A stretch of DNA of 15,045 bases. Source: an uncultured Gammaproteobacteria bacterium. Its GTDB lineage: Bacteria; Patescibacteriota; Patescibacteriia; UBA2591; UBA6264. Below the pieces are notes generated by a model that was given only the letters and a program-made list of their open reading frames with translations, was not told where the DNA came from and did not search any database. Numbering within the stretch: the stretch's first letter is position 1; the number at the start of each line of letters is the position of its first letter. The DNA is taken from assembly GCA_964617525.1 (NCBI GenBank), contig CAZTWG010000007.1, positions 1 through 15,045 of the forward strand, in the 5' to 3' direction. Positions 2,535-15,045 of the stretch are shown in pieces. The translations under genes were made by a program, and so were the position numbers.

Positions 2535-2614
2535 AATTGCTGGTTGCTGATTGTTTAAAAATCCACAAATAGCTAGCAATTGATAACAGCAATCAATAAT
2601 TAACAATTGGTCAA
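2535..2614. repeat. intergenic repeat element, copy 1 (TTG/CAAT-rich, self-complementary)
   Basis: Block 1, TTGCTGATTGTTTAAAAATCC (2544-2564), matches 7137-7156 with one substitution and one T indel. Block 2, AATAATTAACAATT (2595-2608), matches 7181-7194 at 13/14 positions. Block 1 starts 63 nt after the yebC stop. The element is followed by a T/G-rich tract (2615-2660). Confidence 0.6.
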
Positions 2615-2665
2615 TTTAGTTTTGTTGTGTTGTTCTGTTAATTTGTTTAAATGTTTTAATATTTT

Positions 2666-3178
2666 ATGATTATTCTAGGAGTTGACCCAGGGTACGCGAT
2701 TACTGGATATGCTATTATTGATGTTGATGCTCAAACTAAACTAATATCTTTGCTCGATTATGGGTGTATTTTATCTTCCTCTAAAGATATTTTTTCTAAA
2801 AGATTATTAATTGTTTACGAGAAGATTAAAGAGATAATAGAAAAATATAATCCAGACAAGATAGCTGTAGAAAGTATTTTTTTTGCCAAGAATGTTAAGA
2901 CTGCTATTAAGGTTAGCCAAGCTAGAGGGGTTATTGTTTTGGCAGCTGCGATTAAAGATATTGAGGTTTTGGATTTTACTCCTTTACAAGTCAAGCAAGC
3001 TTTAACTGGCTATGGCAGGGCTTCTAAAAGTCAAATTCAACAAATGGTGAAAAATGTTTTGAAACTAAAAAGTATTCCACGTCCAGATGATGCCGCCGAT
3101 GCGTTGGCTATCGCACTTACTTGCGCGCAGACAAAGTCATGGGAACATAAGAACAAGTTGAAGCTACCTGGGGACTGA
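2666..3178 (+). CDS. ruvC: crossover junction endodeoxyribonuclease RuvC (Holliday junction resolvase)
   Basis: 170-aa ORF. MIILGVDPGYAITGYAII carries the first catalytic Asp, AVESIFF the catalytic Glu, and PDDAADALAIAL the C-terminal acidic pair. Length is typical. TGA stop at 3176-3178. Confidence 0.95.
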   Translation: MIILGVDPGYAITGYAIIDVDAQTKLISLLDYGCILSSSKDIFSKRLLIVYEKIKEIIEKYNPDKIAVESIFFAKNVKTAIKVSQARGVIVLAAAIKDIEVLDFTPLQVKQALTGYGRASKSQIQQMVKNVLKLKSIPRPDDAADALAIALTCAQTKSWEHKNKLKLPGD

Positions 3179-3225
3179 GTTCCTAAGCAATAAATGTTTG
3201 GACGCTCAGTGTTTAAACAAATGAG

Positions 3226-3254
3226 AAAAATACAGGGAAACCTGTATTTTTTTT
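3226..3254. terminator. bidirectional Rho-independent terminator between convergent ruvC and the LysM-CHAP gene
   Basis: AAAAA-TACAGG-GAAA-CCTGTA-TTTTTTTT. The 6-bp core stem (3231-3236 / 3241-3246) has a GAAA tetraloop, an A5 run upstream and a T8 run downstream. It therefore reads as a hairpin plus U-tract on both strands. It lies in the 141-nt gap between two convergent stops. Confidence 0.65.
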
Positions 3255-3319
3255 ACTTGGGGGCCGAGTTTTCAATTAGATTATTTTTTTATGCTCTGAT
3301 GTTATTATACTCTCACGCT

Positions 3320-4543
3320 CTAACGCTTTGGATATATGTACCCTACTATTTGCCATCTACCTTGAGACGTGCTTTGCCACGCAGTTGTTCTTTTTAATCT
3401 TCTGGTAACTGGTTTTTGTGTCCAACTTGGATTTGACGGGCCGTTCATTTCCGAGAAATAAACATAGTCATTGTCAAATTTTTCTATATAAGCGACATGT
3501 CCATACCAATTATTACATCTCAAAACCACTATTGACCCTTCGTCGCCCTTGTTTAGAGTTAATCCTGTTCTGAACCCATCGTTTCTAGCGTTTTGTAGCC
3601 ATGTTCTAGCATTTCCCCAATTATTTGGACCTACACATTGACCCAATTCAGTCGCCCATTTATAGGCCACCCAATCAGTGCATTGTCCTGGTTTCGTGTA
3701 GTAACGTTTACATGATGCACAACAACGTTTATATCTCCAATCTGTATAACTACAATTACTTTTTTCAGTGGCTGTAGATAGAGAGGTTGTTGCTCTTGGT
3801 TTGTAAACTGGTTTTAATTTTGGCAAAGGTGAGGCTTCAGGGATAATTAGTGTTTCCCCTACTTGTAAATTATCGGGATTAATAAGGTTGTTAAATTCAA
3901 TTATTTTTTCGCTATCTGCTTTGTATTTTTTTGCAATTTGCAAAAGTTTTTCGTCCTTTTTTATTTTATGTAAAATTCCATCTACGGGTAGAATTATTAA
4001 TTTGTCTCCAGGTTGAATATTGGCTCGCCAATAAGTTAAATCATTTGCCCAAAGTATGGTCCAAACACTTAGGCCGAATTTTTCAGCAATATTCCAAGGA
4101 TTATCATTAGGTTTGACTATATAGTATTCAATTTTAGTTCTGGTGGGTAAAATATTTTTATTGACTTCATTGTTGGAAGCAACTAAAGCAGTATTATTTA
4201 AGGTTAGCGGAATTTCAGATGGAGCCCCTTCTTCTCTTAATAGAGTGGCGATTTGGAAATCATGATTTTCTTCCTCTAAATCTTGCTCAGAGGAGATTAT
4301 ATCTAAATGAATGTTTTCGTTAGTATCTTCGGAAAAAATAATATTATTACTTTGATTTATTGTTTGAGAGTAAGAAAATAACACAAAAAATAAAACAGCC
4401 ATGATGATAGGCAGTTGTTTTCCTGGTTGTAATTTTTTAAAGGTTTTAGATAGAAAATGTCCAAAATAAATAACACGAAGAATGCTTCCCTTTAAAGCTT
4501 TGATACTATGCCTGACAATTTGTCGTAATAGTTTATCTTGCAT
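3320..4543 (-). CDS. membrane-anchored/secreted peptidoglycan hydrolase: 2x LysM + C-terminal CHAP amidase/peptidase domain
   Basis: 407-aa ORF. There is an N-terminal hydrophobic anchor (LPIIMAVLFFVLFSYS). Two LysM repeats are present: YYIVKPNDNPWNIAEKFGLSVWTILWANDL...IQPGDKLIILP and LHKIKKDEKLLQIAKKYKADSEKIIEFNNL...LQVGETLIIP. The CHAP signature has the catalytic Cys in GQCTDWVAYKW and the His in YGHVAYIE. TAG stop at 3320-3322. Confidence 0.85.
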   Translation of the reverse strand: MQDKLLRQIVRHSIKALKGSILRVIYFGHFLSKTFKKLQPGKQLPIIMAVLFFVLFSYSQTINQSNNIIFSEDTNENIHLDIISSEQDLEEENHDFQIATLLREEGAPSEIPLTLNNTALVASNNEVNKNILPTRTKIEYYIVKPNDNPWNIAEKFGLSVWTILWANDLTYWRANIQPGDKLIILPVDGILHKIKKDEKLLQIAKKYKADSEKIIEFNNLINPDNLQVGETLIIPEASPLPKLKPVYKPRATTSLSTATEKSNCSYTDWRYKRCCASCKRYYTKPGQCTDWVAYKWATELGQCVGPNNWGNARTWLQNARNDGFRTGLTLNKGDEGSIVVLRCNNWYGHVAYIEKFDNDYVYFSEMNGPSNPSWTQKPVTRRLKRTTAWQSTSQGRWQIVGYIYPKR

Positions 4544-4603
4544 AAAACGATTTTTTTTTGTATGATAATAATTATTATGCCTAAAATTGTAAAAAAATCA
4601 AGT

Positions 4604-7072
4604 ATGAGTTATCAACATCTGAATTTAAACGCGAAATGGTTTAAAATTTGGGATAAGTTGGGGGTTTATCACACATCAGAACAAACAGACCAAGAAAAAA
4701 AGTATATTTTAGTTGAATTTCCTTATCCATCTGGGGATGGTTTACATCTTGGGCATGCTTTTGCTTTTGTTGGAGCTGATATTTATGCGCGCTTTCAAAG
4801 AATGCAAGGGAAAAGAGTACTTTTCCCCATGGGTTGGGATGCCTTTGGTTTGCCAACTGAAAATTATGCCATTAAGACCAAAGCTAATCCTCGTCAAATA
4901 ACTAAAAAGAATACGAATAGATTTAAAGACCAGATGAAAGAACTGCAACTTTCATTTGACTGGGAGATAGAAGTCAACACCACTGACCCTGATTATTATA
5001 AATGGACTCAGTGGATTTTTGTTGAATTATTCAAAAGGGGATTAACATACAAAAAGGAAATGCCTATTAATTGGTGTCCTAAATGTAAAATAGGGTTAGC
5101 TAACGAAGAGGTAGTGAATAATAAATGTGAAAGATGCGGAGCTGAAGTTTCGCGTAGAAATATTTCTCAGTGGATTGTAAGGATTACAGATTACGCAGAC
5201 AGATTAATCGATGGTTTATCTCAAACAGATTTTATCAAAAAAGTTAGAACAGCGCAGATAAATTGGATTGGGAAAAGTAATGGGGCGGAAGTTATCTTTA
5301 AAATTAAAACTAACAGAAAAGAAGAGGATTTAAAAATATTTACAACTCGTCCAGATACATTATGGGGAGCGACTTTTATGGTTTTAGCCCCAGAACATCC
5401 TTTGATTAATAAATTTTTAGATAGCGATTCTATTAATTCTACTATTAAAGAAAAAATAAAAGAGTATATAACTAAAAGCAAAAATAAATCCGATTTAGAA
5501 AGAACAGATTTAGCTAAAGAAAAAACAGGAGTTTTTAGTGGATTTTATGCAATTAATCCTGTAAATAGTAAGGAAATTCCTATTTGGATATCTGATTTTG
5601 TTTTAATTTCATATGGGACTGGAGCTATTATGTCTGTTCCTGCTCATGACCAAAGGGATTGGGAGTTTGCTCAAAAATTTGGTTTAGAGATAATTCCCGT
5701 AATTCAACCTTCAACGAATTGGGATTTTAAAAAATGTGCTTATACCGATATTTCAAACGGAAAAATTGTAAATTCTGAACCAATTAATGGTTTGAGCCCA
5801 GACGATGCTTTTGAAAAAATGATCAATTGGTTGGAAGAGAAAAAGATAGGTAAAAGAGCTAAAAATTATCATTTAAGGGATTGGATTTTTTCTCGTCAAC
5901 ATTATTGGGGTGAACCAATTCCAATGATTTATTGTCCTAAATGTGGATGGCAACCCGTTAAAGAAGAAGACCTGCCCATAAAACTTCCAGAGATAGAACA
6001 TTATGAACCAACCAATACAGGAGAAAGCCCTTTGGCTGAAATTGAAGAATGGGTTAAAACTGTTTGTCCTAAATGTGGAGGTCCAGCGAAAAGAGAAACA
6101 GATACTATGCCGAATTGGGCGGGTTCAGATTGGTATTTTTTAAGATATACTGACCCCAAGAATAAAAAGATGTTAGCTAGCAAAGAAAAAATGAAAAAAT
6201 GGCTTCCAGTTGATATTTATATTGGAGGAGATGAACATAATACTCTTCATCTTCTATATTCTCGTTTTATTTATCAATTTCTATGGGACATCAATGTTGT
6301 GCCAAAAGAGAATCTAGAGCCATATCAAAAAAGAGTGTCTCATGGAGTAATTCTTGGCCCAGATAACCAAAGGATGAGTAAATCTAAAGGTAATGGGATT
6401 GCCCCAGAAGAAGTAATAGGAAGGTTTGATAAATATGGGTCAGATATTTTAAGAATGTATCTAATGTTTATTGGACCCTTTGAGGGAACTATGGCATGGA
6501 ATGACCAAGCGCTAATGGGTATAAAAAGATTTTTGGAAAAAATAGAGGATTATATTGATTCTTGGACATCTTCCCAAAAAGAGCATCCAGAAGCAATACA
6601 TAATAATGATATAAAACCTTTACTACATCAAACAATAAAAAAAGTAACTGAAGATATTAAAAATTTAAGATATAATACAGCTATTGCTTGTTTAATGGAA
6701 TTTTTAAATAAAATAAAAGCAAAAAAGGGTAAGATAAACCAAGATGATCTTGAAATTTTTCTTGTTCTTTTATCCCCATTTGTCCCTGTTTTTAGTGAGG
6801 AGCAGTTACAAAAAATTGATTCGTCAGTACAAAGTATTTTTTTGAAATCTTGGCCAAGGTTTGATTGTCAGTTGGCTAAAAATAAAAAAATTGAATTTGT
6901 TGTGCAGGTTAATGGTAGAATTAGGGGTAGGTTTAAGACTAAAATTGGGCTTTCCCAGGAACAAGCTGAAAAAAATGTTTCTTCAATGCCTCAAATCCAG
7001 AAATATTTACAAGGAAAAGAAATTAAAAAAGTAATTTTTATCCCTGACAAATTAATTAATATGGTTATTTGA
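4604..7072 (+). CDS. leuS: leucine--tRNA ligase (LeuRS)
   Basis: The HIGH motif (HLGHAF), KMSKS motif (RMSKSKGN), CP1 editing-domain start (TTRPDTLWGATFMVLAPEHP) and two CxxC...CxxC zinc knuckles are all present. The track ORF begins at 4538 and would overlap the divergent 4543 start. I place the start at ATG 4604 (MSYQHLNLNAKWFKIW), which gives the usual spacing from Met to the conserved KW..W. ATG 4577 is an alternative. TGA stop at 7070-7072. Confidence 0.92.
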   Translation: MSYQHLNLNAKWFKIWDKLGVYHTSEQTDQEKKYILVEFPYPSGDGLHLGHAFAFVGADIYARFQRMQGKRVLFPMGWDAFGLPTENYAIKTKANPRQITKKNTNRFKDQMKELQLSFDWEIEVNTTDPDYYKWTQWIFVELFKRGLTYKKEMPINWCPKCKIGLANEEVVNNKCERCGAEVSRRNISQWIVRITDYADRLIDGLSQTDFIKKVRTAQINWIGKSNGAEVIFKIKTNRKEEDLKIFTTRPDTLWGATFMVLAPEHPLINKFLDSDSINSTIKEKIKEYITKSKNKSDLERTDLAKEKTGVFSGFYAINPVNSKEIPIWISDFVLISYGTGAIMSVPAHDQRDWEFAQKFGLEIIPVIQPSTNWDFKKCAYTDISNGKIVNSEPINGLSPDDAFEKMINWLEEKKIGKRAKNYHLRDWIFSRQHYWGEPIPMIYCPKCGWQPVKEEDLPIKLPEIEHYEPTNTGESPLAEIEEWVKTVCPKCGGPAKRETDTMPNWAGSDWYFLRYTDPKNKKMLASKEKMKKWLPVDIYIGGDEHNTLHLLYSRFIYQFLWDINVVPKENLEPYQKRVSHGVILGPDNQRMSKSKGNGIAPEEVIGRFDKYGSDILRMYLMFIGPFEGTMAWNDQALMGIKRFLEKIEDYIDSWTSSQKEHPEAIHNNDIKPLLHQTIKKVTEDIKNLRYNTAIACLMEFLNKIKAKKGKINQDDLEIFLVLLSPFVPVFSEEQLQKIDSSVQSIFLKSWPRFDCQLAKNKKIEFVVQVNGRIRGRFKTKIGLSQEQAEKNVSSMPQIQKYLQGKEIKKVIFIPDKLINMVI

Positions 7073-7134
7073 TTATTAATGAGTCAGAACACTATATAAC
7101 GAACAAAAATATTAATGCTTAGATATCAAACCAG

Positions 7135-7196
7135 AATTGTTGATTGTTAAAAATCCGAAAGCAGTCAACAATCGACAACTAATAATCAACAATTAA
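7135..7196. repeat. intergenic repeat element, copy 2 (hairpin with two alternative 3' partners)
   Basis: TTGTTGATTGTT (7137-7148) pairs with AACAATCGACAA (7167-7178). This is 12 bp with one G-U wobble on the + strand RNA, and the 18-nt loop is AAAAATCCGAAAGCAGTC. Alternatively AATTGTTGATT (7135-7145) is a perfect complement of AATCAACAATT (7184-7194). Blocks 1 and 2 are shared with 2544-2564 and 2595-2608. Block 1 starts 65 nt after the leuS stop. Confidence 0.6.
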
Positions 7197-7223
7197 TTTG
7201 CGTTGCGTATTTTATATATAATA

Positions 7224-8129
7224 ATGAGTGTTCTAAAAGAAACTAAATCTACTTGCAAGCAGTATAATTTTGTCCCTTTGCGTCGTCGGGGGCAAAATTT
7301 TTTAATTAATCCTAAGATTATTGAACGGATTATAGATGTAGCTAAGATAGATAGGGAAGATATTATTCTAGAAATAGGTCCAGGTCTAGGAGCGTTAACA
7401 GAAGAAATTGTTAACAAATGCAAAAAAATAATTGTAGTTGAAATTGACCAAAAGTTAGCCCAGATATTGAAAGAGCGTTTAAGAAAACATAAGAATATAG
7501 AAATAGTTAGAGCTAGTATTTTAGATGGGATTCCAGACTTGAGTCTAAAAGGAAAGAAATATAAGGTAGTGGCTAGCTTGCCTTTTAATATTGTTGGTAG
7601 AATTTTAAGAATTTTAATGACAGAGAAAGATAAATTAGAATCAATTGTAGTGGTGGTTCAAAAAGAAGTTGCTCAAAGGATAATTGCTCAACCTCCCTAT
7701 ATGTCTCTTTTGTCTTTATCAATCCAATTTTATAGCCGAGTAAATGTTGTTTTTGATATTAATAGAAGTAATTTTTGGCCACAACCTAGAGTAGATTCAA
7801 CTGTGCTAAAAATAGAGCCAAAAGAATGTAAGGTTAAAAAAGAAATTGAAAATAATTTTTTCCGACTTATTAAAGCTGGCTTTTCTTCTAAGCGGAAATA
7901 TTTACTTAACAATTTATCTAAAAATGTTATAATGCAGGATATAAAATACAAAAAACAAAAAACAAACAATAAAAAACAAACAATAATTAATAATCAAATG
8001 AATTATTTTATCCCCGGAAAAAAAGAATTTTTTTTAAATATTTTTAGAGAAATTGGGTTGAATGAAAAAGTTAGAGCGCAAGAATTATCAATTGAACAAT
8101 GGATACAACTTGCGAGCAAAATAAATTAA
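7224..8129 (+). CDS. rsmA: 16S rRNA (adenine1518/1519-N6)-dimethyltransferase RsmA/KsgA
   Basis: RRRGQNFLINPKIIERIIDVA plus the SAM-binding ILEIGPGLGALTEEI motif, and the C-terminal RAQELSIEQW helix. The track ORF starts at TTG 7203. The first ATG (7224, MSVLKE...) is the more likely start. The gene contains a K/N/Q-rich insertion of about 35 aa before the C-terminal helix. Confidence 0.9.
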   Translation: MSVLKETKSTCKQYNFVPLRRRGQNFLINPKIIERIIDVAKIDREDIILEIGPGLGALTEEIVNKCKKIIVVEIDQKLAQILKERLRKHKNIEIVRASILDGIPDLSLKGKKYKVVASLPFNIVGRILRILMTEKDKLESIVVVVQKEVAQRIIAQPPYMSLLSLSIQFYSRVNVVFDINRSNFWPQPRVDSTVLKIEPKECKVKKEIENNFFRLIKAGFSSKRKYLLNNLSKNVIMQDIKYKKQKTNNKKQTIINNQMNYFIPGKKEFFLNIFREIGLNEKVRAQELSIEQWIQLASKIN

Positions 8130-8139
8130 TTTAAAATAT

Positions 8140-8832
8140 ATGCCTAATAAATCTAAAATTTTGTCATTATCTTTTTTGTCAGCGCTGTCTTTGTTTATCT
8201 TGGTTTTAGGTTTTTTACAGATTAGGGGAACGATTTATGGTCCGTTTAGAGGTTTTAAAAAATCTAATACAGAGAAAAAAATGACATTAACGCAAGAAGA
8301 GATTTTATCTGTTTTGTCAGAACAGGCTAAACAAGAAGACACGGACAAAGACGGTCTTTCTGATTATGACGAAGTTTATGTCCATAAAACATCTCCATAT
8401 ATTGAAGATTCTGATAGCGACGCTTTCTCTGATGCAGAGGAGGTAGAAGCTGGTAGTGACCCATTAAATTCTTTTTCAACGCCTTATCGTCAGGGCAAGG
8501 ATACAGAAAGCAATTTATCAGAAGATTCTATGCCTCAAGTTACTGAGAACGAACAATTTTCCTCAGAAGATATTCGAAATTTTTTAATTCAAGCGGGAAT
8601 AGATAAAGAAATTCTAGACAATATTGATGACAATGAGTTGAAAAAGTTATATAATAATACTAAAGAAGAAACAGGAATTGACCCGCAGGATTTAGGGTTG
8701 CCATCTTCTCCTGAGGTTGATATTTCTTTATTAAGGCAATCTCTGATAGATGAAGGAGTTGATGCTTTGATGTTAGAACAAATAGATGATGATACGTTAA
8801 AAGCAATGTTTTTGGAAAACTTAAAATATTAA
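8140..8832 (+). CDS. membrane-anchored acidic protein with thrombospondin type-3-like Ca-binding repeats and a duplicated C-terminal helical motif
   Basis: 230-aa ORF starting 10 nt after rsmA. The N-terminal anchor/signal is ILSLSFLSALSLFILVLGFL. It carries TSP3-like repeats and two copies of a ~26-aa motif at a 53-aa offset. TAA stop at 8830-8832, only 3 nt before the giant ORF's ATG. Confidence 0.8.
   Translation: MPNKSKILSLSFLSALSLFILVLGFLQIRGTIYGPFRGFKKSNTEKKMTLTQEEILSVLSEQAKQEDTDKDGLSDYDEVYVHKTSPYIEDSDSDAFSDAEEVEAGSDPLNSFSTPYRQGKDTESNLSEDSMPQVTENEQFSSEDIRNFLIQAGIDKEILDNIDDNELKKLYNNTKEETGIDPQDLGLPSSPEVDISLLRQSLIDEGVDALMLEQIDDDTLKAMFLENLKY
8338..8469 (+). other. thrombospondin type-3-like calcium-binding repeat region (protein domain)
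   Basis: DTDKDGLSDYDEVYVHKTSPYIEDSDSDAFSDAEEVEAGSDPLN follows the bacterial TSP3 pattern D-x-D-x-D-G-x-x-D-x-x-E ... G-[ST]-D-P-x-N. This match is from my memory of the family consensus. Confidence 0.65.
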
Positions 8833-8835
8833 AAC

Positions 8836-8943
8836 ATGAAGTTTAAGAAATTAAATAATATTTTTACGAAAGGAGCAATTTCATCAATAATGCTTATATT
8901 AATTGTTTCTTCTTTTTTGTTTTTACCTGGAAGGGCTCAAGCT
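8836..8943 (+). other. Sec-type signal peptide of the giant protein
   Basis: MKFKKLNNIFTKGAISSIMLILIVSSFLFLPGRAQA|QF has a Lys-rich n-region, a ~16-residue hydrophobic core, and an A-x-A (AQA) cleavage motif. Confidence 0.75.
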
Positions 8944-11900
8944 CAATTTATTGTTAATGATACAGTTAAGACCGTTCGGGATGCAGTTAAATGGGCATGG
9001 GATAAAGGTGGGGCTGTTGCTTATAGAAACTCTTTAAATTTTTTCTTACAACAAGCCGCCAAACAATCTGGTGAATGGCTAGCAACTGGTGATGTAGGCA
9101 AAAAACCAGCATTTTTAACTGATCCAGATTTTTATAAAAAAGCGGGAGACCAAATGTTGGGAGAATTTGTTGATTCTGTGGCGGGTAATTTTTTGGGGCA
9201 GAGTCTTTGCGATACCTTAGATCCAACGGTCAAATTTAATATGTTAGCGACATTAGACCCAAATTATAACAAAATGAAATGGGCAAAAGAGCCAAAATGT
9301 TCTTTTACTCAGATTAAAAAGAATCTTAAAGATGCTAGCAAAAAGAAACTATTTGAATTTTCTGCTGACGTGAAAGAAGGAAAAGTTGCGAAACAGCGCT
9401 CTAGTATTAGCACCATAATCCAAGGTGATCCAATTCTAACTGAAGGGATGAAACATATTTTAGATGGTAAATTGGATATTTGTCCTGGGGATGGCAAAGA
9501 TGTTTTGCAATGTCCTGCAGGAGCGATTAATTGTGGGTTAGGAAATGTTTTTTATTTCTACGAAGAAGGTTATATAGGAGTTGGAGCTCAATTACATAAA
9601 TATACTAATGAATTTGAGGATATTTTGTCAGCCCTAAGGCATGATGAAAAAGTTATAGAACTTGCTCCAGGTGAAGAGGCGCCTGAATTAGATCCAAAAG
9701 CCCCTATAAACCAGACAGCAGCTGCCGCTTTTAAAGATTTAAAGAAAAAATTAGACCCAAAGGAAACAACGGCAAGTATAAGTATATGGGGGGACGGAAC
9801 TGGAGTTGGTTTAAATACGTTAGGTTTAAAATATTTAAATAAAACGAGTTCAGAATGTTCTAGGAAGAGCCCAAGTGATGTGTGTGATGAAAATAAATGT
9901 GTTCTTATATGTGATATTGGTGGAGCTGATTTATGTAAAGCTTCAGAAGAATCTAAATCAGAATGCTATAATCGTATCAAAAGAGTTAATAAATATACAA
10001 AGCAATTAATAGAATGGGCGACGACTCTTTATGATATGATAACTCAGGTTACTGAGAATTGGGAGGCACAACAAGGTATGCCTGACTTGGATCCATTAGA
10101 AGATGCTAGTAATATGTTCAATCCAGAAAGTAATCCTATGGGTATACAGATGGAGTTAAAAAGCAAATTATTTGAAAAACAGACGGATGCGATTGAAAAG
10201 AGTAAAACTTTCAGAGATATCCAAGGCTCAATGAATGCAGTGACCTCAAAAGTTTCTGGCATCGTTAAGCTACCTTCTACTTTTGTGAATGAAAAGGCGC
10301 GAGAATCTGTAAAAGCCGGGACAGCTAGTTTTAATACTTATACGGGCGTGGCTTTAGCTGATGCTCTCGGAGTTTTTGTCAATACTTTTTTAACTCAATA
10401 TGCTAAAGTTTTTATTGAAGGGCTTAACCCTGCTGCTGACAGTAGTAGGGTTACTACTACTAGCGATGAGGACGAAACACCAAATCCAGACACAACATCT
10501 ATTTTAAGCGATATAAAAGTAATTCCTATTAATCAAAGCAGTAATGAAATGACAATTTACGATGAATTCGCGGTTTGTCCTACCGGAACTGACCAAAAGT
10601 ATAAATCTCAATTTAATTGTTTGTTAGACAATAAATTAGCTCGGGCAGTAGAAGAAAGAATGACCATTCAAGAAGCTATGGCAAATGGTCTTCTTAATCA
10701 GGATGAACGTTTGGGTATACGTGGAGACAAAAGCGGTTTGCTATCAAAGAATCATATTCAAAAATTACGGCTGATTGGCATTCTGCCCTTAGGTGCGCAA
10801 ATTGCTAGTGAAATAATTATGGAAGGGCCACATACTAGTAGTGGAGTGACCTTGTCTGACGTAGTAGATGGATTTGACAAAAGGGGAGAAGATGGCATTT
10901 GTGGCACTTCTGACACGGGAGAAAGTGAATTTTGTAATTTAGTTGACCCTAACTGGGTTTTGAAAGCTCCTAGTTATTTGTGTGAAATAACAGGTTATTC
11001 GGCTGTTCCTTTGCGTGATAGTTCTTTTCGCCAAGAATCCTGTTTAGATTTAAAAACATGTATTAACGAGACAGAAAGCAATCAATGTGATACTTGGTCC
11101 TATTGCACTCGCGAAAAGAATGTTTGGCGCTTTGGAGGCAATGAATGTGATTCTCAGTATAATACCTGCACTTCCTATGTTCAAAAGAGTAGTAAAGAGA
11201 TTTCTTCTTATCTTTCCAATACTTTAGATTTTGATAATTGTAGCGCTAGTAACGTGGGCTGTAAGTGGTATTGTTCAAGGTGGGACCAAACATATTCAGG
11301 AGTAGGTGGTGATTGGGCTTGCACGTCTCCTGGTTGGCGGCAATATACTTGTTATTTAGGAGACGTATGTAATGCTTCTAATGGGTGTGACTGTGCTTGT
11401 GACGGAGATAATGGTTGCCCAGATGGTTTGGGGAATTGTTTGGTTGCAATGGGGGGGATTTCTTGCTCTTTGGAGATGCCAGAATTAAGAAATGTAGCCT
11501 TTTTCAGTGACCAGATTAAGGAATGCCAAGAGTCTAACGAGGGCTGTTCTCAATATATTAGAACTAAGCCAGGGATGGGAGTTAACTTTTTGTCTAACGG
11601 AAGCTTTGAGTTGCCTTCTAAAGATGAGGATATTCCTATTGGTTGGCAGGTCAATGGTCCAGTCCAGCAGATTACTCCTTTATCTAGAGCACAAAATGGT
11701 AGCAATGTGGTGCAGATTCAAAATACTGAAACAGCAGTGGATTGCCAATTAAGTCAGTCTATTTATAACATCCCATCGCAAGGCGATTTCGTAGTCTCTG
11801 GATATTATAGGAGGAATGATACTGTGTCCTCTAGTCCTAATATGAAGGTGCAAATTTGCTACGATAATAATTGTTCTGACAAAGATGAAATAGTATCTCC

Positions 11901-14900
11901 GATTGATTTTAATGATAATAACTGGAAATATGTTTCTGTATCCTTATCTTCTGATAAAGAAAAAATTATTGACCATATTGAGGTTTTTGCTTTTGATTCT
12001 CCTAGTTTTACTGGCAATGTTTATGTTGACACAATGCAACTTAGAAACGAACCCATGAATTCATCTTACAGAGAATATGGTTCTAAGGGAATTACTTATT
12101 TAAAAAGTGCTATGGGGTGGATGAATTGCTATGATAGCGACGAAAATAATGATGATGTTGATTGTGAAAATTTTGTTCAAAAGTGTAGTCTAGAAAATGT
12201 TGGTTGCGAGCTTTATTCTCCTGTTGATAATAATATGTCTGATATCCCAGCGTTGGTTAATGATTCAGATTTATGTCCTTACTCTTGTGTTGGTTATGAA
12301 ACTTTCGAAGAAATGCCTACGAATTTTGAGAATAATCAGGACAAGAGATTAGTTCATTTAATCCCGTCAACAGCTCAAAAGTGTTCTGCCCCTGGTTGTG
12401 AGGAGTTTACGAATCTAGACGCAGTTTCTGACGGAGGTGAGGGCAGAGAATATTATACATATTTACGCCAATGCATTAAAACTAATGCTCAGGGCATGGC
12501 AATTGTGAATTCTTCTGGCAACCAAATCTCTCCTGCTTCAGCTGATACTTGTCAGTATTATTATACTTGGGTTGGAGAAGATACAAGTGGGTACCAACTA
12601 AAAAAATATTATTTAGAAGCTGATTCATCTTTGGGAGGACCAGCTCAAGTTAGTCAAAATCCAAATTCAGAGTGGGGGTTGTGCGACGAAGATAATTTAG
12701 ACAATCCTCATTGTAGACAGTTTTATGATGCTATGGGCAACGTTTATTATCGTCTCTACAAAAACACTACTACATGTTCAACGGATTGTAGCCCGTATCG
12801 TCGGGTAATAGACAACTCGATTGAAATGGCGATTGGCGCGGAGGCGGAAGTGTGTAATGCCAGTGATATGGGTTGTAGGGAGTATAAAGGGTCTACTTAT
12901 GGAAATATAAAAAATCTATTTTTAGATAAATTTATTTCTAGTTCTGAACCATGGGAAAATGTTGAAATTAGTTATGAATCAATTAGCTATTTGGGTAATT
13001 CAATAAAAGCAAACGCTAATCTTGCCAAAAGGCCAGTAGATGGTTTGGTTCAAAAGGGAAAGGCTTACTCTCTATCTCTCTGGGTTAAAGGTAGTGGAAA
13101 CTATATAGCTTCTTTCGGAAATGATTTGTATTTTATCACGAGTGAACCTCATAACATTTCAGTTACTTCTAATGATTGGCAGGAAATAAGATTTGGTTCA
13201 ATTTATTTTAATAGAAATCCAGAGAATGATGAAAAATTAATAATTCAAGGCCCAAATCAATTTTATTTAGACAACATTACTCTTAATGAAATTCAAGATA
13301 ATGTTTATTTAATTAAGGATTCTTGGAATACTCCAGAGGTATGCGATATTGACGATGAGGGAAATGTATCGTTGGGCTATATGCTTGGTTGCCAGGCATA
13401 TCGTGACAGATTCCAAGACGCTCATTATCTAAAGTCATTTAGCAATCTTTGTCCAGAAAAAGAAGTTGGGTGCGAAGCTATGATTGATACCCAGAATTCA
13501 ACTTCTCCTTTTAGTGAGGAATTCAATAGCGGGTCTCCTCAGGGAGATGAAATTATTATTCCATCTGATAACTTAATTTATAGAGTTTATGATACAAGCA
13601 AGAGCTGTCTGCCAGAAGATAAAGGATGCCAAAGATTTGGTTTGCCCGAACTTGATTCTAACCAAGAAGCAATTGATTTCACAGATGTTTATTTGTTAAA
13701 TAATCCGGATTTATATAAATTGCAATCTACCTTATGCGATATAGAGGGAGAGGGATGTCAAGAATATGAAGGACAAGTATATTTTAAGGAGCCGACTGAT
13801 AATGTCTGTGAATATCGTGAAAATGTTTTTGTTGGCGGAGAAAACAAAAATGGTTGGTTTAAAAAAGGAACTAAAAATCCTTGCTATACAGAGAACGGTT
13901 TTGCCTATCAACCATATGGGTCAGTTTATGGCATTCGCACAAATAAAGATTCTTTATATGAAGGAATTGTAGGTATTTGTCCTGAAAGTCAGAATGGATG
14001 CACTCGGTTTATCAATCCAGTTGAACAAAATTTAGTTTTAAACGGTGGTTTTGAATTAGATAAGAATGAGGATAATATTCCTGATGGCTGGACTCCATAC
14101 GCTGACCCTGAAAACTCATTTTCGTTAGTAACAGATGGTTGTTTAAGTGGTAGTTGTTGGAGAGTTAATCAATCCATGGATATGGATTCTTTTTCAGCTG
14201 GCAGGCAGTATATAAAAATACAGCCAGGTTCTACTTATGAACTTTCAGCTTGGATAAAGGCAACAGATGATTCTTCTGGTAACAGCAAAATTTATCTTGC
14301 TTATACTGATAGCACGTCCTATAGTGGCCCTACTTGGCCATGGGGCATTATTATTTCTGAACAAAAAGGGTCTACGGACGGAAAATGGATAAAACATACT
14401 GTTACATTGAAAGCTCCTACAGATGCAGTGTATGCTAGCATTTTAGCTCCTTACGTTAATGGTGGTAAGGTGGACATGATGATAGATAATATTTCCTTAA
14501 TAGAAAAGAATTCCCCTAAAGGCAGTTATTATTATTTGAGCGACGGAAATATAGATGAAACTTCTTGTAATGGAATGGTTGGAATAAAAGATGGCTGTGT
14601 ATTATTTAACAATACTTCCTTTTCGGGGAAGCAATATGATTCAGCTTACACTTACGCATTAAGCGAAGCTCAAGGAGATACTTCGGTCCCAGCACAAAGT
14701 GTTGTGAATCCTCAAAGTGACAATGAAGGAGATAGTAATGTAGTTCTTAAGGTAAGACGAGATAGGGTTTGTGGTGAATGGTTACAGTGTTCGGGATATC
14801 GTTCTGTTTGGGATAGTTCTATTGATGAATATCGTCCAGTTTGTGATTCATGGATTCGTTGTGACGAATTAATTGGCTCTGGCAAGCAAGCTCAGTGTGG

Positions 14901-15045
14901 ACATGTTGTTTCTAATCCCAATCCAAGCGTTTTAAACAAAAATGAATATATTAGTCGCGATGTCTCTTGGGCAGGAATGGATTATTCAGGTTATTCTCTG
15001 CCAAATATGTATCCTATAGAAAAATTATTCCCAAGCGAAGATAAC
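8836..15045 (+). CDS. giant secreted cysteine-rich multi-lectin-module surface protein, 3'-partial (>=2,070 aa, continues beyond window)
   Basis: I translated frame 1 by hand, codon by codon, from ATG 8836 to codon 15043-15045 and found no TAA, TAG or TGA. It is not in the supplied track, presumably because no stop lies inside the window. Only short antisense or out-of-frame ORFs are listed across this span. It has a Sec signal peptide, about 76 Cys, three CBM4/9-like modules and recurrent C-x5-G-C-x2-[YFM] motifs. Confidence 0.9.
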   Translation, partial: MKFKKLNNIFTKGAISSIMLILIVSSFLFLPGRAQAQFIVNDTVKTVRDAVKWAWDKGGAVAYRNSLNFFLQQAAKQSGEWLATGDVGKKPAFLTDPDFYKKAGDQMLGEFVDSVAGNFLGQSLCDTLDPTVKFNMLATLDPNYNKMKWAKEPKCSFTQIKKNLKDASKKKLFEFSADVKEGKVAKQRSSISTIIQGDPILTEGMKHILDGKLDICPGDGKDVLQCPAGAINCGLGNVFYFYEEGYIGVGAQLHKYTNEFEDILSALRHDEKVIELAPGEEAPELDPKAPINQTAAAAFKDLKKKLDPKETTASISIWGDGTGVGLNTLGLKYLNKTSSECSRKSPSDVCDENKCVLICDIGGADLCKASEESKSECYNRIKRVNKYTKQLIEWATTLYDMITQVTENWEAQQGMPDLDPLEDASNMFNPESNPMGIQMELKSKLFEKQTDAIEKSKTFRDIQGSMNAVTSKVSGIVKLPSTFVNEKARESVKAGTASFNTYTGVALADALGVFVNTFLTQYAKVFIEGLNPAADSSRVTTTSDEDETPNPDTTSILSDIKVIPINQSSNEMTIYDEFAVCPTGTDQKYKSQFNCLLDNKLARAVEERMTIQEAMANGLLNQDERLGIRGDKSGLLSKNHIQKLRLIGILPLGAQIASEIIMEGPHTSSGVTLSDVVDGFDKRGEDGICGTSDTGESEFCNLVDPNWVLKAPSYLCEITGYSAVPLRDSSFRQESCLDLKTCINETESNQCDTWSYCTREKNVWRFGGNECDSQYNTCTSYVQKSSKEISSYLSNTLDFDNCSASNVGCKWYCSRWDQTYSGVGGDWACTSPGWRQYTCYLGDVCNASNGCDCACDGDNGCPDGLGNCLVAMGGISCSLEMPELRNVAFFSDQIKECQESNEGCSQYIRTKPGMGVNFLSNGSFELPSKDEDIPIGWQVNGPVQQITPLSRAQNGSNVVQIQNTETAVDCQLSQSIYNIPSQGDFVVSGYYRRNDTVSSSPNMKVQICYDNNCSDKDEIVSPIDFNDNNWKYVSVSLSSDKEKIIDHIEVFAFDSPSFTGNVYVDTMQLRNEPMNSSYREYGSKGITYLKSAMGWMNCYDSDENNDDVDCENFVQKCSLENVGCELYSPVDNNMSDIPALVNDSDLCPYSCVGYETFEEMPTNFENNQDKRLVHLIPSTAQKCSAPGCEEFTNLDAVSDGGEGREYYTYLRQCIKTNAQGMAIVNSSGNQISPASADTCQYYYTWVGEDTSGYQLKKYYLEADSSLGGPAQVSQNPNSEWGLCDEDNLDNPHCRQFYDAMGNVYYRLYKNTTTCSTDCSPYRRVIDNSIEMAIGAEAEVCNASDMGCREYKGSTYGNIKNLFLDKFISSSEPWENVEISYESISYLGNSIKANANLAKRPVDGLVQKGKAYSLSLWVKGSGNYIASFGNDLYFITSEPHNISVTSNDWQEIRFGSIYFNRNPENDEKLIIQGPNQFYLDNITLNEIQDNVYLIKDSWNTPEVCDIDDEGNVSLGYMLGCQAYRDRFQDAHYLKSFSNLCPEKEVGCEAMIDTQNSTSPFSEEFNSGSPQGDEIIIPSDNLIYRVYDTSKSCLPEDKGCQRFGLPELDSNQEAIDFTDVYLLNNPDLYKLQSTLCDIEGEGCQEYEGQVYFKEPTDNVCEYRENVFVGGENKNGWFKKGTKNPCYTENGFAYQPYGSVYGIRTNKDSLYEGIVGICPESQNGCTRFINPVEQNLVLNGGFELDKNEDNIPDGWTPYADPENSFSLVTDGCLSGSCWRVNQSMDMDSFSAGRQYIKIQPGSTYELSAWIKATDDSSGNSKIYLAYTDSTSYSGPTWPWGIIISEQKGSTDGKWIKHTVTLKAPTDAVYASILAPYVNGGKVDMMIDNISLIEKNSPKGSYYYLSDGNIDETSCNGMVGIKDGCVLFNNTSFSGKQYDSAYTYALSEAQGDTSVPAQSVVNPQSDNEGDSNVVLKVRRDRVCGEWLQCSGYRSVWDSSIDEYRPVCDSWIRCDELIGSGKQAQCGHVVSNPNPSVLNKNEYISRDVSWAGMDYSGYSLPNMYPIEKLFPSEDN
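11581..12051 (+). other. CBM4/9-like (galactose-binding-like jelly-roll) module 1 of giant protein
   Basis: VNFLSNGSFE...IPIGWQVNG ... GDFVVSGYYRRN ... NNWKYVSVSL ... GNVYVDTMQL. It shows the family-typical N-x-x-x-N-G-x-F-E entry, the G-x-x-Y/F-x-x-S-x-[WY] strand, the central W and the closing [VY]-x-D-x-x-x-L strand. This match is from memory of PF02018-type domains. Confidence 0.6.
12913..13293 (+). other. CBM4/9-like module 2 (most diverged)
   Basis: NLFLDKFISSSEPWENV ... GKAYSLSLWVKGSG ... NDWQEIRFGS ... NQFYLDNITLNE. It keeps the same order of landmarks as modules 1 and 3 but lacks the NGxFE entry. Confidence 0.45.
14029..14508 (+). other. CBM4/9-like module 3 (best match)
   Basis: NLVLNGGFELDKNEDNIPDGWTPY ... 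GSTYELSAWIKATDD ... GKWIKHTVTLKAP ... GKVDMMIDNISLIE. Confidence 0.65.

What the first reader, a model, noticed from the sequence alone, without database searches (positions are those of the whole stretch)
8836..15045. Giant open-ended ORF (>=2,070 codons) that the ORF track does not show
The track lists only five short ORFs (62-81 aa, antisense or frame 2) across 6.2 kb, so the region looks non-coding. Reading frame 1 by hand from ATG 8836 to the last full codon (15043-15045) gives no stop codon at all. In DNA this AT-rich a random frame hits a stop every few dozen codons, so this frame is coding. The N-terminus is a textbook Sec signal peptide (AQA|QF). The mature protein has about 76 Cys, three lectin-like modules and no catalytic motif I recognise. 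The gene runs off the window, so its true size is unknown. Giant secreted proteins of this style are reported from small-genome episymbiotic or predatory lineages (CPR/Patescibacteria, Omnitrophota), and their functions are mostly unknown. This is the best candidate for an undescribed surface or host-interaction apparatus in the window.
Basis: partly seen in the sequence, partly recalled or inferred. Interest (0 to 1): 0.85.

Follow-up and report, generated by a model that had tools for sequence, protein, structure and literature searches.

The report
Giant secreted protein beside Patescibacteria T4SS
The open frame is real: it is the first three quarters of a roughly 2,750-residue secreted, cysteine-rich, sugar-binding surface protein of an ultra-small (Patescibacteria) bacterium. 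It belongs to a large unnamed family that in many lineages sits at the head of the type IV secretion gene cluster, and it may be that machine's missing host-contact subunit.

Summary
Frame 1 from ATG 8836 to 15045 has 2,070 codons, no stop and 76 Cys. The ORF tool omits it only because it runs off the window.

It is a real gene. Thirteen full-length homologues (2,708-2,940 aa, 53-71% identity) exist, and three independent assemblies of near-identical strains keep it open.

The family is large and unnamed: 294 species genomes and at least 768 clusters at 50% identity. All named genomes are Patescibacteria.

Only CBM_4_9 carbohydrate-binding modules are recognisable, and only one of the three is significant alone.

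A small membrane-anchored TSP3 calcium-repeat gene (8140-8832) precedes the giant in all 76 loci examined.

In 23 of 49 informative loci, including this window's closest relatives, the giant lies directly upstream of extended VirB6, PrgI/VirB3, TrsD and VirB4.

The mature N-terminus (AQA|QFIVND) matches the VirB5 minor-pilin signature (Agrobacterium QFVVSDP, Bacteroides TraI QWVVSDP). That similarity does not extend past about 8 residues, and fold searches gave nothing significant.

Best reading (confidence about 0.45): it is the extracellular host-contact subunit of the Patescibacteria type IV secretion system. The main rival is a generic surface adhesin.

The parts
8140..8832 (+). Partner gene (230 aa): N-terminal membrane anchor, two bacterial TSP3 calcium-binding repeats, an acidic linker and two C-terminal 'IRxxLxxxGxxxxxLxxxxDxxLxxLY' repeats. 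Its stop lies 3 nt before the giant's ATG.
   Evidence: Pfam TSP3_bac 34.4 bits (cut-off 25), two stretches. Hydrophobic segment at residues 4-34; 48 D+E against 21 K+R. A homologue lies directly upstream of the giant in all 76 non-redundant loci examined, with a median gap of 9 nt.
8836..15045 (+). Giant ORF: the first 2,070 codons of a gene of about 2,750 codons. It is open at the 3' end of the window.
   Evidence: No stop in 2,070 codons. Homologues of 2,708-2,940 aa cover 100% of the query at 53-71% identity. Strain contigs keep the frame open to 2,202, 2,084 and 1,880 codons.
8836..8943 (+). Predicted Sec signal peptide (aa 1-36) with predicted cleavage AQA|QF.
   Evidence: Hydropathy. 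The AxA|Q site is conserved across the family. No SignalP was available.
8944..8961 (+). Mature N-terminal motif QFIVND (aa 37-42), the same signature as VirB5-type minor pilins.
   Evidence: Agrobacterium and rhizobial VirB5: ARA|QF[VL]V[ST]DP. Twelve plasmid VirB5s: AQ-(I/F)-(P/V)-V-x-D. Bacteroides p5482 TraI: FG|QWVVSDP. The strict motif occurs in 18/88 locus giants against 1/2,378 background ORFs. hhalign gives E 1e-4 and probability 56-59%.
8944..9480 (+). Conserved N-terminal helical module (aa 37-215): two long helices, the 'AxxxAxWLAxGxxGKxPxF' loop and two conserved Cys (C125, C155).
   Evidence: Alignments A3, A6 and A9. An exhaustive profile search finds 1,399 clusters carrying it, almost all on proteins of 2,000-3,600 aa. 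AF2 models it as helices with pLDDT 50-75.
9481..10125 (+). Clade-specific insert (aa 216-430): a helices-plus-small-beta-sheet subdomain with Cys pairs.
   Evidence: AF2 pLDDT 80-97 for about aa 185-415. It is detectable in fewer than 20% of family members. Strain L103 carries indels and 34 non-synonymous changes at aa 264-337.
10501..11280 (+). Family-defining core domain (aa 556-815) with the motifs FCNLVDPNW and YCTREKNVWRF.
   Evidence: It aligns in 98-100% of 71 full-length relatives over aa 650-800. The two motifs were the patterns that recovered 294 genomes. No Pfam hit.
11584..11955 (+). CBM_4_9-like module 1 (aa 917-1040), sub-threshold.
   Evidence: Pfam tile E 1.6e-3, 19.2 bits against a cut-off of 25.9. 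Present in about half of relatives.
12133..13935 (+). Conserved scaffold (aa 1100-1700) with repeated disulfide-hairpin motifs C-x5-6-G-C-x2-[YF]. It includes CBM-like module 2 (partial hit at aa 1391-1422).
   Evidence: Motif positions 1117, 1340, 1539, 1591 and 1634 fall in this span; further copies lie outside it at 802, 897, 1715 and 1911. It aligns in 90-100% of relatives. Pfam tile E 2.5e-3.
14026..14427 (+). CBM_4_9 module 3 (aa 1731-1864), the only individually significant carbohydrate-binding module.
   Evidence: Pfam E 3.5e-8, 34.3 bits. A PDB profile search hits the CBM22 region of C. thermocellum xylanase Y (2W5F/2WYS) at E 3e-6. It is present in only about 20% of relatives. Strain differences cluster at aa 1779-1880.
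14533..15045 (+). Conserved Cys-rich segment (aa 1900-2070) that continues beyond the window into a C-terminal region of about 700 aa with no known domain.
   Evidence: It aligns in 86-99% of relatives. The C-terminal tiles of homologues have no Pfam hit. There is no TM helix or LPXTG at the C-terminus.
3320..4543 (-). LysM-LysM-CHAP peptidoglycan hydrolase (407 aa), a candidate VirB1-like wall-opening enzyme. Its membership of the system is inferred from synteny only.
   Evidence: Pfam LysM E 4.8e-19 and CHAP E 6.7e-13. It occupies the same position and strand in 15 related loci. PMC12102498 reports VirB1-like CHAP/LysM proteins associated with virB4 in Paceibacteria.

Best explanation
The window holds the 5' three quarters of a gene for a Sec-exported, disulfide-rich extracellular protein of about 300 kDa from a Patescibacteria (Parcubacteria-type) genome. 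I propose it is the extracellular, host-contacting subunit of the chromosomal type IV secretion (T4SS) apparatus of these episymbionts.

Proposed steps:
1. Sec exports the protein and signal peptidase cuts at AQA|QF. The cleavage site is inferred from sequence.
2. The conserved N-terminal helical module, which starts with the VirB5-type motif QF(I/V)V(T/S/N)D, docks the protein onto the extended-VirB6 platform or onto the tip of the VirB2-like pilus. It may also bind the co-encoded membrane-anchored TSP3 calcium-binding protein. This step is inferred.
3. The conserved Cys-hairpin scaffold forms a rigid stalk. This step is inferred.
4. Lineage-specific CBM_4_9 lectin-like insertions bind host cell-surface glycans and set host specificity. 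The domain identity is shown; the ligand is inferred.

What is shown directly: the gene is real, the family is large and restricted to Patescibacteria, the partner gene is always present, the giant lies next to the T4SS core in about half of lineages, and the N-terminal motif is shared with VirB5-type proteins.
For: Gene reality.

Family size and range:
- 294 species genomes encode a relative. All informative record titles are Patescibacteria, Uhrbacteria, Falkowbacteria, Buchananbacteria or Parcubacteria.
- 1,399 clusters at 50% identity match at E<=1e-3 and 768 at E<=1e-10.

Context:
- In L001/L004 (55% identity) the order is four T4SS_pilin genes, YebC, RuvC, LysM-CHAP, LeuRS, RsmA, the 236-aa partner, the giant, TrbL_3/VirB6 (882 aa), a 531-aa protein, PrgI, TraC-like/TrsD, VirB4, 196-aa and 200-aa proteins, and another pilin.
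- The window shows the same order from YebC to the giant.
- The same giant-VirB6-...-VirB4 order holds at only 25-30% identity (L007, L062, L075, L087).
- 23 of 49 non-redundant loci with at least 2.5 kb downstream have VirB6 next.
- VirB4 is confirmed (NF045971, 330 bits against a cut-off of 325) and TrsD hits at E 1e-7. PrgI and the pilins are confirmed. The VirB6-like protein has 6-8 hydrophobic segments followed by a 540-aa hydrophilic domain.

N-terminal signature:
- It is shared with Agrobacterium VirB5, IncN/IncW/other VirB5s and Bacteroides TraI. The rhizobial and several other VirB5 genes, and TraI, lie immediately upstream of a type IV secretion/VirB6-type gene; in the remaining VirB5 plasmids a small EexN entry-exclusion gene follows virB5.
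- hhalign gives E about 1e-4.
- Pfam DUF4141 hits 12 of 77 N-termini. It is also the only Pfam hit of bona fide Agrobacterium VirB5.

Literature:
- Patescibacteria T4SS have VirB2-like pilins. No adhesin was detected, and no VirB5 homologue is listed among the components found in the Patescibacteria-clade systems (PMC12102498; PMC12857230).
- VirB5 docks on a VirB6 pentamer and ends up at the pilus tip (PMC9259494).
- VirB5 homologues can keep only an N-terminal helix-loop-helix and carry extra domains, as F TraH does (bioRxiv 10.64898/2026.07.31.741991).

Variable lectin modules on a conserved scaffold. Strain-level changes cluster in the insert and in CBM3.
Against: - The T4SS genes are not in the window. 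The link rests on synteny in relatives.
- In 26 of 49 informative loci (mostly Uhrbacteria-type, giants of 3,000-4,500 aa) the pair is followed by unrelated genes such as NusA and YidC.
- The housekeeping gene RsmA is an even more constant neighbour (54 loci). Conserved gene order in these small genomes is therefore weak evidence of function.
- The VirB5 similarity is confined to the signal peptide plus about 8 mature residues. With signal peptides removed hhalign gives P 0.0088, and without the motif P 0.2.
- The strict motif is present in only about 20% of the family.
- No member hits Pfam PF07996.
- Foldseek against PDB found no VirB5/TraC/TrwJ. The best E-values were 0.4-0.6, to generic helical bundles and ClyA-type toxins.
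- The N-terminal part of the model has only pLDDT 50-75.
- In this Pfam copy the 882-aa protein gave no TrbL hit. Its VirB6 call rests on a precomputed hit, its topology and its position.
- Southlakia's essential T4SS cluster has no such giant.
Confidence: 0.45

Rival explanations
1. A generic cell-surface adhesin or envelope (fibril or S-layer-like) protein. It would be tethered by the co-encoded TSP3 membrane protein and work independently of the T4SS. Its position next to VirB6 would be inherited gene order with no functional meaning.
For: - The only universally conserved neighbour is the TSP3 partner, present in all 76 loci examined.
- Half of the informative loci have no T4SS gene downstream.
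- RsmA, LeuRS, RuvC and YebC are equally syntenic.
- Large Cys-rich extracellular proteins thought to act in attachment are a general CPR trait (PMC4736985, PMC8080830).
- TSP3-repeat proteins such as MtsD and CglD act in cell cohesion or adhesion; the NCBIfam hits to them are weak.
Against: - The giant-VirB6 adjacency survives down to 25-30% protein identity in several classes.
- The most N-terminal 100-200 residues are conserved family-wide, which suggests a docking function rather than a mere leader.
- The N-terminal motif coincides with that of VirB5 and TraI.
Confidence: 0.35
2. A secreted glycan-targeting enzyme or pore-forming/lytic toxin. Its unrecognised domains would carry catalytic or membrane-damaging activity against the host envelope, with the CBMs serving as targeting modules.
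For: - In characterised proteins CBM_4_9/CBM22 modules usually accompany glycoside hydrolases; the PDB hits are xylanase Y and an endoglucanase.
- More than 85% of the protein has no assigned domain.
- The top, non-significant, fold matches of the N-terminal region are ClyA-family alpha-pore-forming toxins (HblL1, Cry6Aa, ClyA, AhlB, NheA, XaxA).
Against: - No catalytic family was hit in Pfam, NCBIfam or PDB profiles.
- The fold matches have E >= 0.4 and TM <= 0.26.
- The repeated disulfide hairpins and lectin modules look like a structural or adhesive array.
Confidence: 0.1
3. A pseudogene remnant or an assembly artefact or chimera that only appears as one long frame.
For: All contigs that carry it end inside the gene, so the 3' end was never assembled for this strain.
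Against: - There are no stops in 2,070-2,202 codons.
- Collinear homologues are complete at 2,708-2,940 aa on contigs of up to 658 kb.
- Three independent assemblies agree.
- There are no DNA repeats.
Confidence: 0.01

Closest known systems
VirB5-type minor pilins (A. tumefaciens VirB5, pKM101 TraC, R388 TrwJ, RP4 TrbJ)
   Same: - Sec signal peptide, and a mature N-terminus Q-hydrophobic-V-V-(S/T)-D(-P).
- An all-alpha N-terminal region.
- The gene lies immediately upstream of the VirB6 homologue.
- The system also encodes VirB2-like pilins.
- The expected role is tip-located adhesion.
   Different: - About 12 times larger (roughly 2,750 against 220 aa).
- No Pfam PF07996 hit.
- Profile similarity ends after about 8 mature residues.
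- No significant fold match.
- The host is a monoderm, and the gene is not always next to VirB6.
Bacteroides conjugative-element TraI (Pfam DUF4141)
   Same: - The mature N-terminus is QWVVSDP.
- The gene sits between the VirB4 (TraG) gene and a weak TrbL/VirB6-like gene.
- DUF4141 is the only Pfam family hit repeatedly by the giants' N-termini.
- Patescibacteria pilins also resemble the Bacteroides-type DUF4134.
   Different: TraI is 189 aa and its function is untested. The DUF4141 hits on the giants are below the gathering score (best E 1.4e-4) and partly cover the signal peptide.
F-plasmid TraH, recently proposed as a divergent VirB5 with an extra domain (bioRxiv 10.64898/2026.07.31.741991)
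   Same: It is a precedent for a VirB5 equivalent that is undetectable by sequence or fold, keeps only an N-terminal helix-loop-helix and carries additional domains.
   Different: TraH is 458 aa and was validated at the pilus tip by immunogold. Nothing comparable exists for this family.
PrgB / aggregation substance and other Gram-positive T4SS adhesins (pCF10)
   Same: It is a large Sec-exported surface protein encoded in a monoderm (MPF-FATA-related) T4SS locus and is thought to make cell-cell contact.
   Different: - The giants have no LPXTG or sortase signal or C-terminal anchor.
- There is no sequence similarity.
- PrgB binds eDNA and lipoteichoic acid through different domains.
- PMC12102498 found no PrgB-like adhesins in Patescibacteria.
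Large cysteine-rich extracellular proteins of CPR bacteria (Peribacteria, Vampirococcus)
   Same: They are Sec-exported, several thousand residues long and Cys-rich, are presumed to act in attachment, and vary between strains (PMC4736985, PMC8080830).
   Different: Those reports describe a loose category, not this family. They note no T4SS linkage, no TSP3 partner and no VirB5-type N-terminus.

Membership tests
CBM_4_9 carbohydrate-binding module (Pfam PF02018) | Profile score above Pfam's gathering cut-off (25.9 bits) | tested here: met
   The whole protein scores 53.8 bits in 3 stretches. Module 3 alone scores 34.3 bits (E 3.5e-8). Modules 1 and 2 alone score 19.2 and 18.6 bits, below the cut-off. 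The PDB profile hit is the CBM22 region of xylanase Y, E 3e-6.
CBM_4_9 carbohydrate-binding module (Pfam PF02018) | Demonstrated glycan binding | not testable with these tools
   Needs recombinant modules and glycan arrays.
VirB5 / TrbJ minor pilin family | Match to the family profile (Pfam PF07996 'T4SS') | tested here: not met
   None of 77 N-termini hit it at E<=1. As a control, IncW VirB5 hits at E 9e-46. Bona fide Agrobacterium VirB5 also fails at E<=0.01, so this test is not very sensitive.
VirB5 / TrbJ minor pilin family | Sec signal peptide followed by the mature N-terminus (A)Q-hydrophobic-(P/V)-V-x-D | tested here: met
   The window has AQA|QFIVND. Within the giant family the strict motif is present in about 20% of members.
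VirB5 / TrbJ minor pilin family | Profile-profile similarity extending over the helical bundle | tested here: not met
   hhalign gives E 1e-4 and probability 56-59% over 26-74 columns. It gives P 0.0088 without signal peptides and P 0.2 without the first 8 mature residues.
VirB5 / TrbJ minor pilin family | Three-helix-bundle fold like TraC (1R8I) or TrwJ | tested here: inconclusive
VirB5 / TrbJ minor pilin family | Gene adjacent to (upstream of) the VirB6 homologue | tested here: met
   Met in relatives: 23 of 49 informative loci, including the closest ones (L009 at 69% and L001/L004 at 55% identity). It cannot be seen in the window itself, which ends inside the gene.
VirB5 / TrbJ minor pilin family | Pentamer on VirB6; location at the pilus tip | not testable with these tools
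   Needs multimer prediction, cryo-ET or immunogold labelling.
Patescibacteria chromosomal T4SS locus (MPF-FATA-related; PMC12102498) | VirB4 of the monoderm type, with PrgI/VirB3, TrsD, VirB6 and VirB2-like pilins nearby | tested here: met
   In relatives' loci: VirB4 NF045971 at 330 bits (cut-off 325) and TrsD at E 1e-7; PrgI at E 1.3e-5 and T4SS_pilin at E 6e-10; VirB6 by the precomputed PF19590 hit plus topology. None of these genes lies inside the window.
PrgB-type sortase-anchored T4SS adhesin | C-terminal LPXTG or TM anchor, and adhesin domains of the antigen I/II type | tested here: not met
   Full-length homologues end in ...GIIKVNINN and similar sequences, with no hydrophobic C-terminal segment or LPXTG. 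There are no such Pfam hits.
Bacterial TSP3-repeat protein (partner gene, Pfam PF18884) | Profile score above the cut-off | tested here: met
   34.4 bits against 25, two stretches. The DTDxDGLSDYDE...DTDSDG motif is conserved in 77 orthologues.
ClyA-family alpha-pore-forming toxins | Significant fold match | tested here: not met
   These proteins are the top Foldseek hits, but with E 0.6-2 and TM <= 0.26.

The most novel reading that the evidence does not exclude
The giant is the missing VirB5 of the Patescibacteria type IV secretion pilus. In this reading it is a minor pilin whose N-terminal helix-loop-helix docks as an oligomer on the extended VirB6 and rides to the pilus tip. It would be fused to a disulfide-braced stalk of about 2,500 residues carrying exchangeable lectin modules that select the host cell. 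That would make it by far the largest VirB5-type tip adhesin known, and it would show how these episymbionts couple host recognition to an essential secretion or uptake channel.
Probability: 0.25. Interest if true: 0.8.

Novelty: new variant of a known kind. Interest (0 to 1): 0.62.

Why it matters
Patescibacteria make up a large share of uncultured bacterial diversity and live attached to host cells. Their chromosomal T4SS is the first T4SS shown to be essential for its owner's growth (Southlakia, PMC10633639), yet its role is described as 'completely unknown' (PMC11665869). The phylum-wide survey found pilins but no adhesin (PMC12102498), and no VirB5 homologue is listed among the components of the Patescibacteria-clade systems.

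A widespread family encoded at the head of that cluster is a concrete candidate for the part that touches the host. The family is found in at least 294 species genomes. It has a VirB5-type N-terminus, a conserved stalk and lineage-specific, strain-variable lectin modules.

This gives testable handles: multimer modelling with VirB6 and the pilins, glycan binding by the CBMs, and localisation by cryo-ET. It also offers a possible marker of host range in metagenomes.

If the T4SS link is wrong, it is still a very large, unnamed two-gene surface module specific to this phylum.

Tried and rejected
- **N-terminal word-index search.** A protein search with the N-terminal profile returned only four short fragments and not even the parent proteins, so the search was largely wasted.
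- **Full-length alignment search.** One search found nothing beyond the original 16 proteins. The family's true breadth came only from the exhaustive representative search and the genome scan.
- **First AF2 model.** With 14 sequences it reached pLDDT 58 and was poor at the N-terminus.
- **Second AF2 model.** With 39 sequences it reached pLDDT 69.8 but still only 50-75 in the key region.
- **PDB sequence and profile searches.** They found only CBMs.
- **C-terminus.** I suspected a PKD-like C-terminal domain from the 'IDWDD...NHTY...KVYIKDNWGWC' pattern. Pfam does not support it.
- **Weak Pfam hit.** A FliD_N (filament cap) hit at aa 437-498 (E 0.042) is dismissed as coiled-coil noise.
- **Apparent CBM3 hypervariability.** An apparent 109 non-synonymous differences in CBM3 between strains was an indel-registration artefact. 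Proper alignment gives 14-55 non-synonymous changes in three small patches.
- **ClyA-like pore former.** Rejected as unsupported.
- **Saccharibacteria check.** Southlakia's T4SS cluster has no giant; its largest protein is 1,113 aa.
- **Artefact checks.** Tandem-repeat, tRNA and Rfam scans of the window were negative.

Full report
**1. The observation**

Translating window 8836-15045 on the + strand gives 2,070 codons with no stop. The other five frames of the same span contain 103-281 stops. From base composition, the probability of a stop-free run of this length is about 1e-71. The frame is closed upstream by TAA at 8830-8832, which is the stop of the preceding gene, so ATG 8836 is the first possible start. 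The protein has 76 Cys.

The ORF listing shows only short ORFs here because it does not list ORFs that run off the source. No tandem repeats, tRNAs or Rfam families occur in the region.

**2. It is a real, conserved gene**

A protein search returned 13 full-length homologues of 2,708-2,940 aa. They are 53-71% identical over 100% of the query. Three more distant relatives were 25-35% identical. Their sources name them 'hypothetical protein' or 'carbohydrate binding domain-containing protein' from Parcubacteria or Patescibacteria. The window therefore lacks about 700 C-terminal residues.

Looking up the neighbouring 230-aa protein found contigs of near-identical sister strains in three ENA assemblies. 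Each has the same upstream gene set as the window (one begins inside the first gene), and each ends inside the giant gene, after 2,202, 2,084 and 1,880 codons, without a stop.

Against these strains the upstream 7 kb differs at 5-9 positions. Differences in the giant cluster in three patches, at aa 264-337, 487-515 and 1779-1880. An earlier impression of massive CBM3 divergence was an indel-registration artefact.

**3. Size and range of the family**

A back-translated pattern scan of one genome per species found 294 genomes that encode a relative. The 80 best were fetched. Every informative record title is Patescibacteria, Uhrbacteria, Falkowbacteria, Buchananbacteria or Parcubacteria. The many 'uncultured Gammaproteobacteria' titles are generic labels on third-party MAGs that have Patescibacteria-type content.

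An exhaustive HMMER search with the N-terminal 570-residue profile found 1,399 clusters at 50% identity with E<=1e-3, and 768 with E<=1e-10. Nearly all full-length hits are 2,000-3,600 aa. So the N-terminal module occurs essentially only on giants.

**4. Anatomy**

- **aa 1-36:** a basic n-region, a hydrophobic core and AQA.
- **aa 37-215:** a helical module conserved across the family, with the loop 'AYDxAVWIASGGKGQxPLF' (consensus) and two nearly invariant Cys.
- **aa 216-430:** a clade-specific insert. AlphaFold2 models it confidently (pLDDT 80-97) as helices plus a small sheet.
- **aa 431-545:** conserved helices, followed by an acidic Pro-rich linker.
- **aa 556-815:** the most conserved domain of the family. 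It aligns in 98-100% of 71 relatives over aa 650-800 and has no known relative.
- **aa 815-2070:** repeated C-x5-6-G-C-x2-[YF] hairpins interleaved with three CBM_4_9-like modules.

Only the third CBM (aa 1731-1864) is individually significant (E 3.5e-8). It is present in only about 20% of relatives. The first is present in about half. The region holding the second is universal.

PDB profile searches find only CBM22-type modules of xylanase Y and an endoglucanase. The C-terminal 700 aa of homologues have no Pfam hit and no anchor. More than 85% of the protein is unassigned.

**5. Genomic context**

The gene at 8140-8832 encodes a 230-aa protein with an N-terminal membrane anchor, two bacterial TSP3 calcium-binding repeats (34.4 bits against a cut-off of 25) and an acidic tail. 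A homologue precedes the giant in all 76 non-redundant loci examined, with a median gap of 9 nt.

In the two best-assembled relatives (contigs of 658 kb and 268 kb) the gene order is as follows:
- four T4SS_pilin genes;
- YebC, RuvC, LysM-CHAP (opposite strand), LeuRS and RsmA;
- the partner gene and the giant;
- TrbL_3/VirB6-like (882 aa) and a 531-aa protein;
- PrgI (VirB3), TraC-like/TrsD and VirB4;
- 196-aa and 200-aa proteins, then another pilin.

The window has the identical order from YebC to the giant. I re-checked the key assignments:
- VirB4 hits NF045971 at 330 bits, above its 325-bit cut-off.
- The TraC-like protein hits TrsD at E 1e-7.
- PrgI and the pilins hit their Pfam families.
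- The 882-aa protein has 6-8 hydrophobic segments followed by a 540-aa hydrophilic domain, the 'extended VirB6' architecture (PMC12857230). In this Pfam copy, however, it gave no TrbL hit.

I built iterated HMMs from these proteins and searched all 88 loci then held. VirB6-like is the next conserved gene in 23 of 49 non-redundant loci with at least 2.5 kb downstream. These include relatives only 25-30% identical (L007, L062, L075, L087). The other 26, mostly Uhrbacteria-type giants of 3,000-4,500 aa, are followed by unrelated genes.

RsmA, a housekeeping methyltransferase, is upstream in 54 loci. Gene order alone is therefore weak evidence of function in these genomes.

**6. The VirB5 lead and how far it goes**

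Pfam gave a weak DUF4141 hit on the N-termini of two homologues, and then on 12 of 77 family N-termini (best E 1.4e-4). It was the only family hit repeatedly. DUF4141 proteins are encoded next to traJ (VirB6) in Bacteroides conjugative elements (PMC10434189).

I fetched real VirB5 genes from plasmid records. Rhizobial VirB5s read ARA|QF[VL]V[ST]DP. Eight further VirB5s from other plasmid lineages (IncN, IncW and six plasmids of other bacteria) read AQ-(G)-I-P-V-x-D or similar. The full ORF of Bacteroides p5482 TraI reads FG|QWVVSDP and is followed by a weak TrbL-like gene.

The window protein reads AQA|QFIVND. Relatives read QFVVTDP, QWVVTDP, QLVVSDP and similar. Bona fide Agrobacterium VirB5 also hits only DUF4141, not PF07996.

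Profile-profile comparison gives E about 1e-4 and probability 56-59%. My controls limit what this means. With signal peptides removed, P is 0.0088 (score 23.3, against at most 19.7 in 20 column shuffles). Without the first eight mature residues, P is 0.2. The strict motif occurs in 18/88 locus giants against 1/2,378 other ORFs, so it is present in only about a fifth of the family.

Two AlphaFold2 models (pLDDT 58 and 69.8) show an all-alpha N-terminus with two long helices, but at pLDDT 50-75. Foldseek against PDB returns nothing below E 0.37. The top hits are ClyA-family toxins, ExbB and BAR domains, and no VirB5 appears.

For context, Macé et al. note that pentameric VirB5 resembles the pore-former HlyE (PMC9259494). 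A 2026 preprint shows that F TraH is a VirB5 equivalent that shares only an N-terminal helix-loop-helix. So the lack of a fold match is not decisive either way.

My judgement: the shared motif plus the shared position next to VirB6 in three T4SS classes is a real lead. It is not a demonstration of homology.

**7. Literature status**

The phylum-wide T4SS survey states that no adhesins such as PrgB were detected and reports VirB2-like pilin arrays. It does not mention this family (PMC12102498). The Southlakia Tn-seq study found the T4SS essential. Its cluster contains no protein larger than 1,113 aa (PMC10633639). Reviews call the function of the system unknown (PMC11665869; PMC12857230). Large Cys-rich CPR surface proteins are known only as a loose category (PMC4736985, PMC8080830).

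**8. Verdict**

The best explanation (confidence about 0.45) is that the giant is the extracellular host-contact subunit of the Patescibacteria T4SS. Its parts would be a VirB5-type N-terminal docking module, a disulfide-braced stalk and exchangeable lectin modules, and it would work with a membrane-anchored calcium-binding partner.

The main rival (about 0.35) is a T4SS-independent surface adhesin tethered by the same partner. An enzyme or toxin role (about 0.1) and an artefact (about 0.01) are less likely.

I rate it a new variant of a known kind, with interest 0.62. If the VirB5 reading holds (probability about 0.25), interest would be about 0.8.

Noticed in passing
window 54-1700 (-): A 548-aa polytopic membrane protein with no Pfam hit. 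In the relatives L001 and L004, the position upstream of YebC is instead occupied by an array of four VirB2-like T4SS_pilin genes. The pilin array of this strain must therefore lie elsewhere or beyond the window.
   Followed up: partly
window 3320-4543 (-): A LysM-LysM-CHAP peptidoglycan hydrolase keeps the same position and strand in 15 related loci. It sits between housekeeping genes, within about 5 kb of the giant. It is a candidate VirB1-like wall-opening enzyme for the T4SS.
   Followed up: partly
window 1759-8129; L001 and L004 2900-9050: Housekeeping genes (YebC, RuvC, LeuRS, RsmA) are interleaved between the pilin array and the T4SS core, in the same order in relatives only 55% identical. 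RsmA stays next to the TSP3-giant pair even where the T4SS core is not adjacent. Guilt by association is therefore unreliable in these genomes.
   Followed up: yes
window 4538-4577: The mechanical LeuRS ORF starts at TTG 4538 and overlaps the start of the divergent CHAP gene (ATG at 4543 on the minus strand). Gene callers on the sister contigs use ATG 4577 (831 aa).
   Followed up: no
window 9625-9846, 10294-10380, 14170-14475 (aa 264-337, 487-515, 1779-1880): Among four near-identical strains, differences in the giant cluster in three patches: the clade-specific insert, a helix near aa 500, and CBM3. About 1,900 other codons and the upstream 7 kb are almost invariant (5-9 SNPs). This suggests local recombination or diversifying selection on exposed parts.
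   Followed up: partly
L102, L103, L104 (ENA ERZ27248007, ERZ27248307, ERZ27248110): All three independent assemblies break inside the giant gene, at codons 2,202, 2,084 and 1,880, shortly after CBM3. This hints at strain heterogeneity or coverage problems in the 3' part of the gene.
   Followed up: no
L022-L077 (for example L029, L064, L076): Uhrbacteria-type relatives are much longer (3,000-4,532 aa) and are followed by variable genes and then NusA-YidC instead of the T4SS core. Some carry a different, Pro-rich N-terminal extension before the conserved module.
   Followed up: partly
L101 12149-12718 (B. thetaiotaomicron plasmid p5482): The annotated 'conjugal transfer protein TraI' starts at 12236, at a Leu codon, and so lacks its signal peptide and the QWVVSDP motif. 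The full ORF starts at ATG 12149 (189 aa).
   Followed up: yes
L089 1501-2160 (A. fabrum pEHA105 virB5): Bona fide Agrobacterium VirB5 does not reach E<=0.01 against Pfam PF07996 (the VirB5 family). Its only hit is the N-terminal part of DUF4141. This suggests DUF4141 captures a cross-class VirB5-type leader and N-terminus signature.
   Followed up: partly
record titles of L009, L012-L014, L016, L017 and others: Many third-party MAG records that carry this Patescibacteria-type locus are titled 'uncultured Gammaproteobacteria bacterium'. This looks like a generic or wrong label.
   Followed up: no
L004 22489-22860: A 23S_rRNA_IVP-family gene (123 aa) is inserted between the 530-aa protein and PrgI in one T4SS cluster only.
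   Followed up: no
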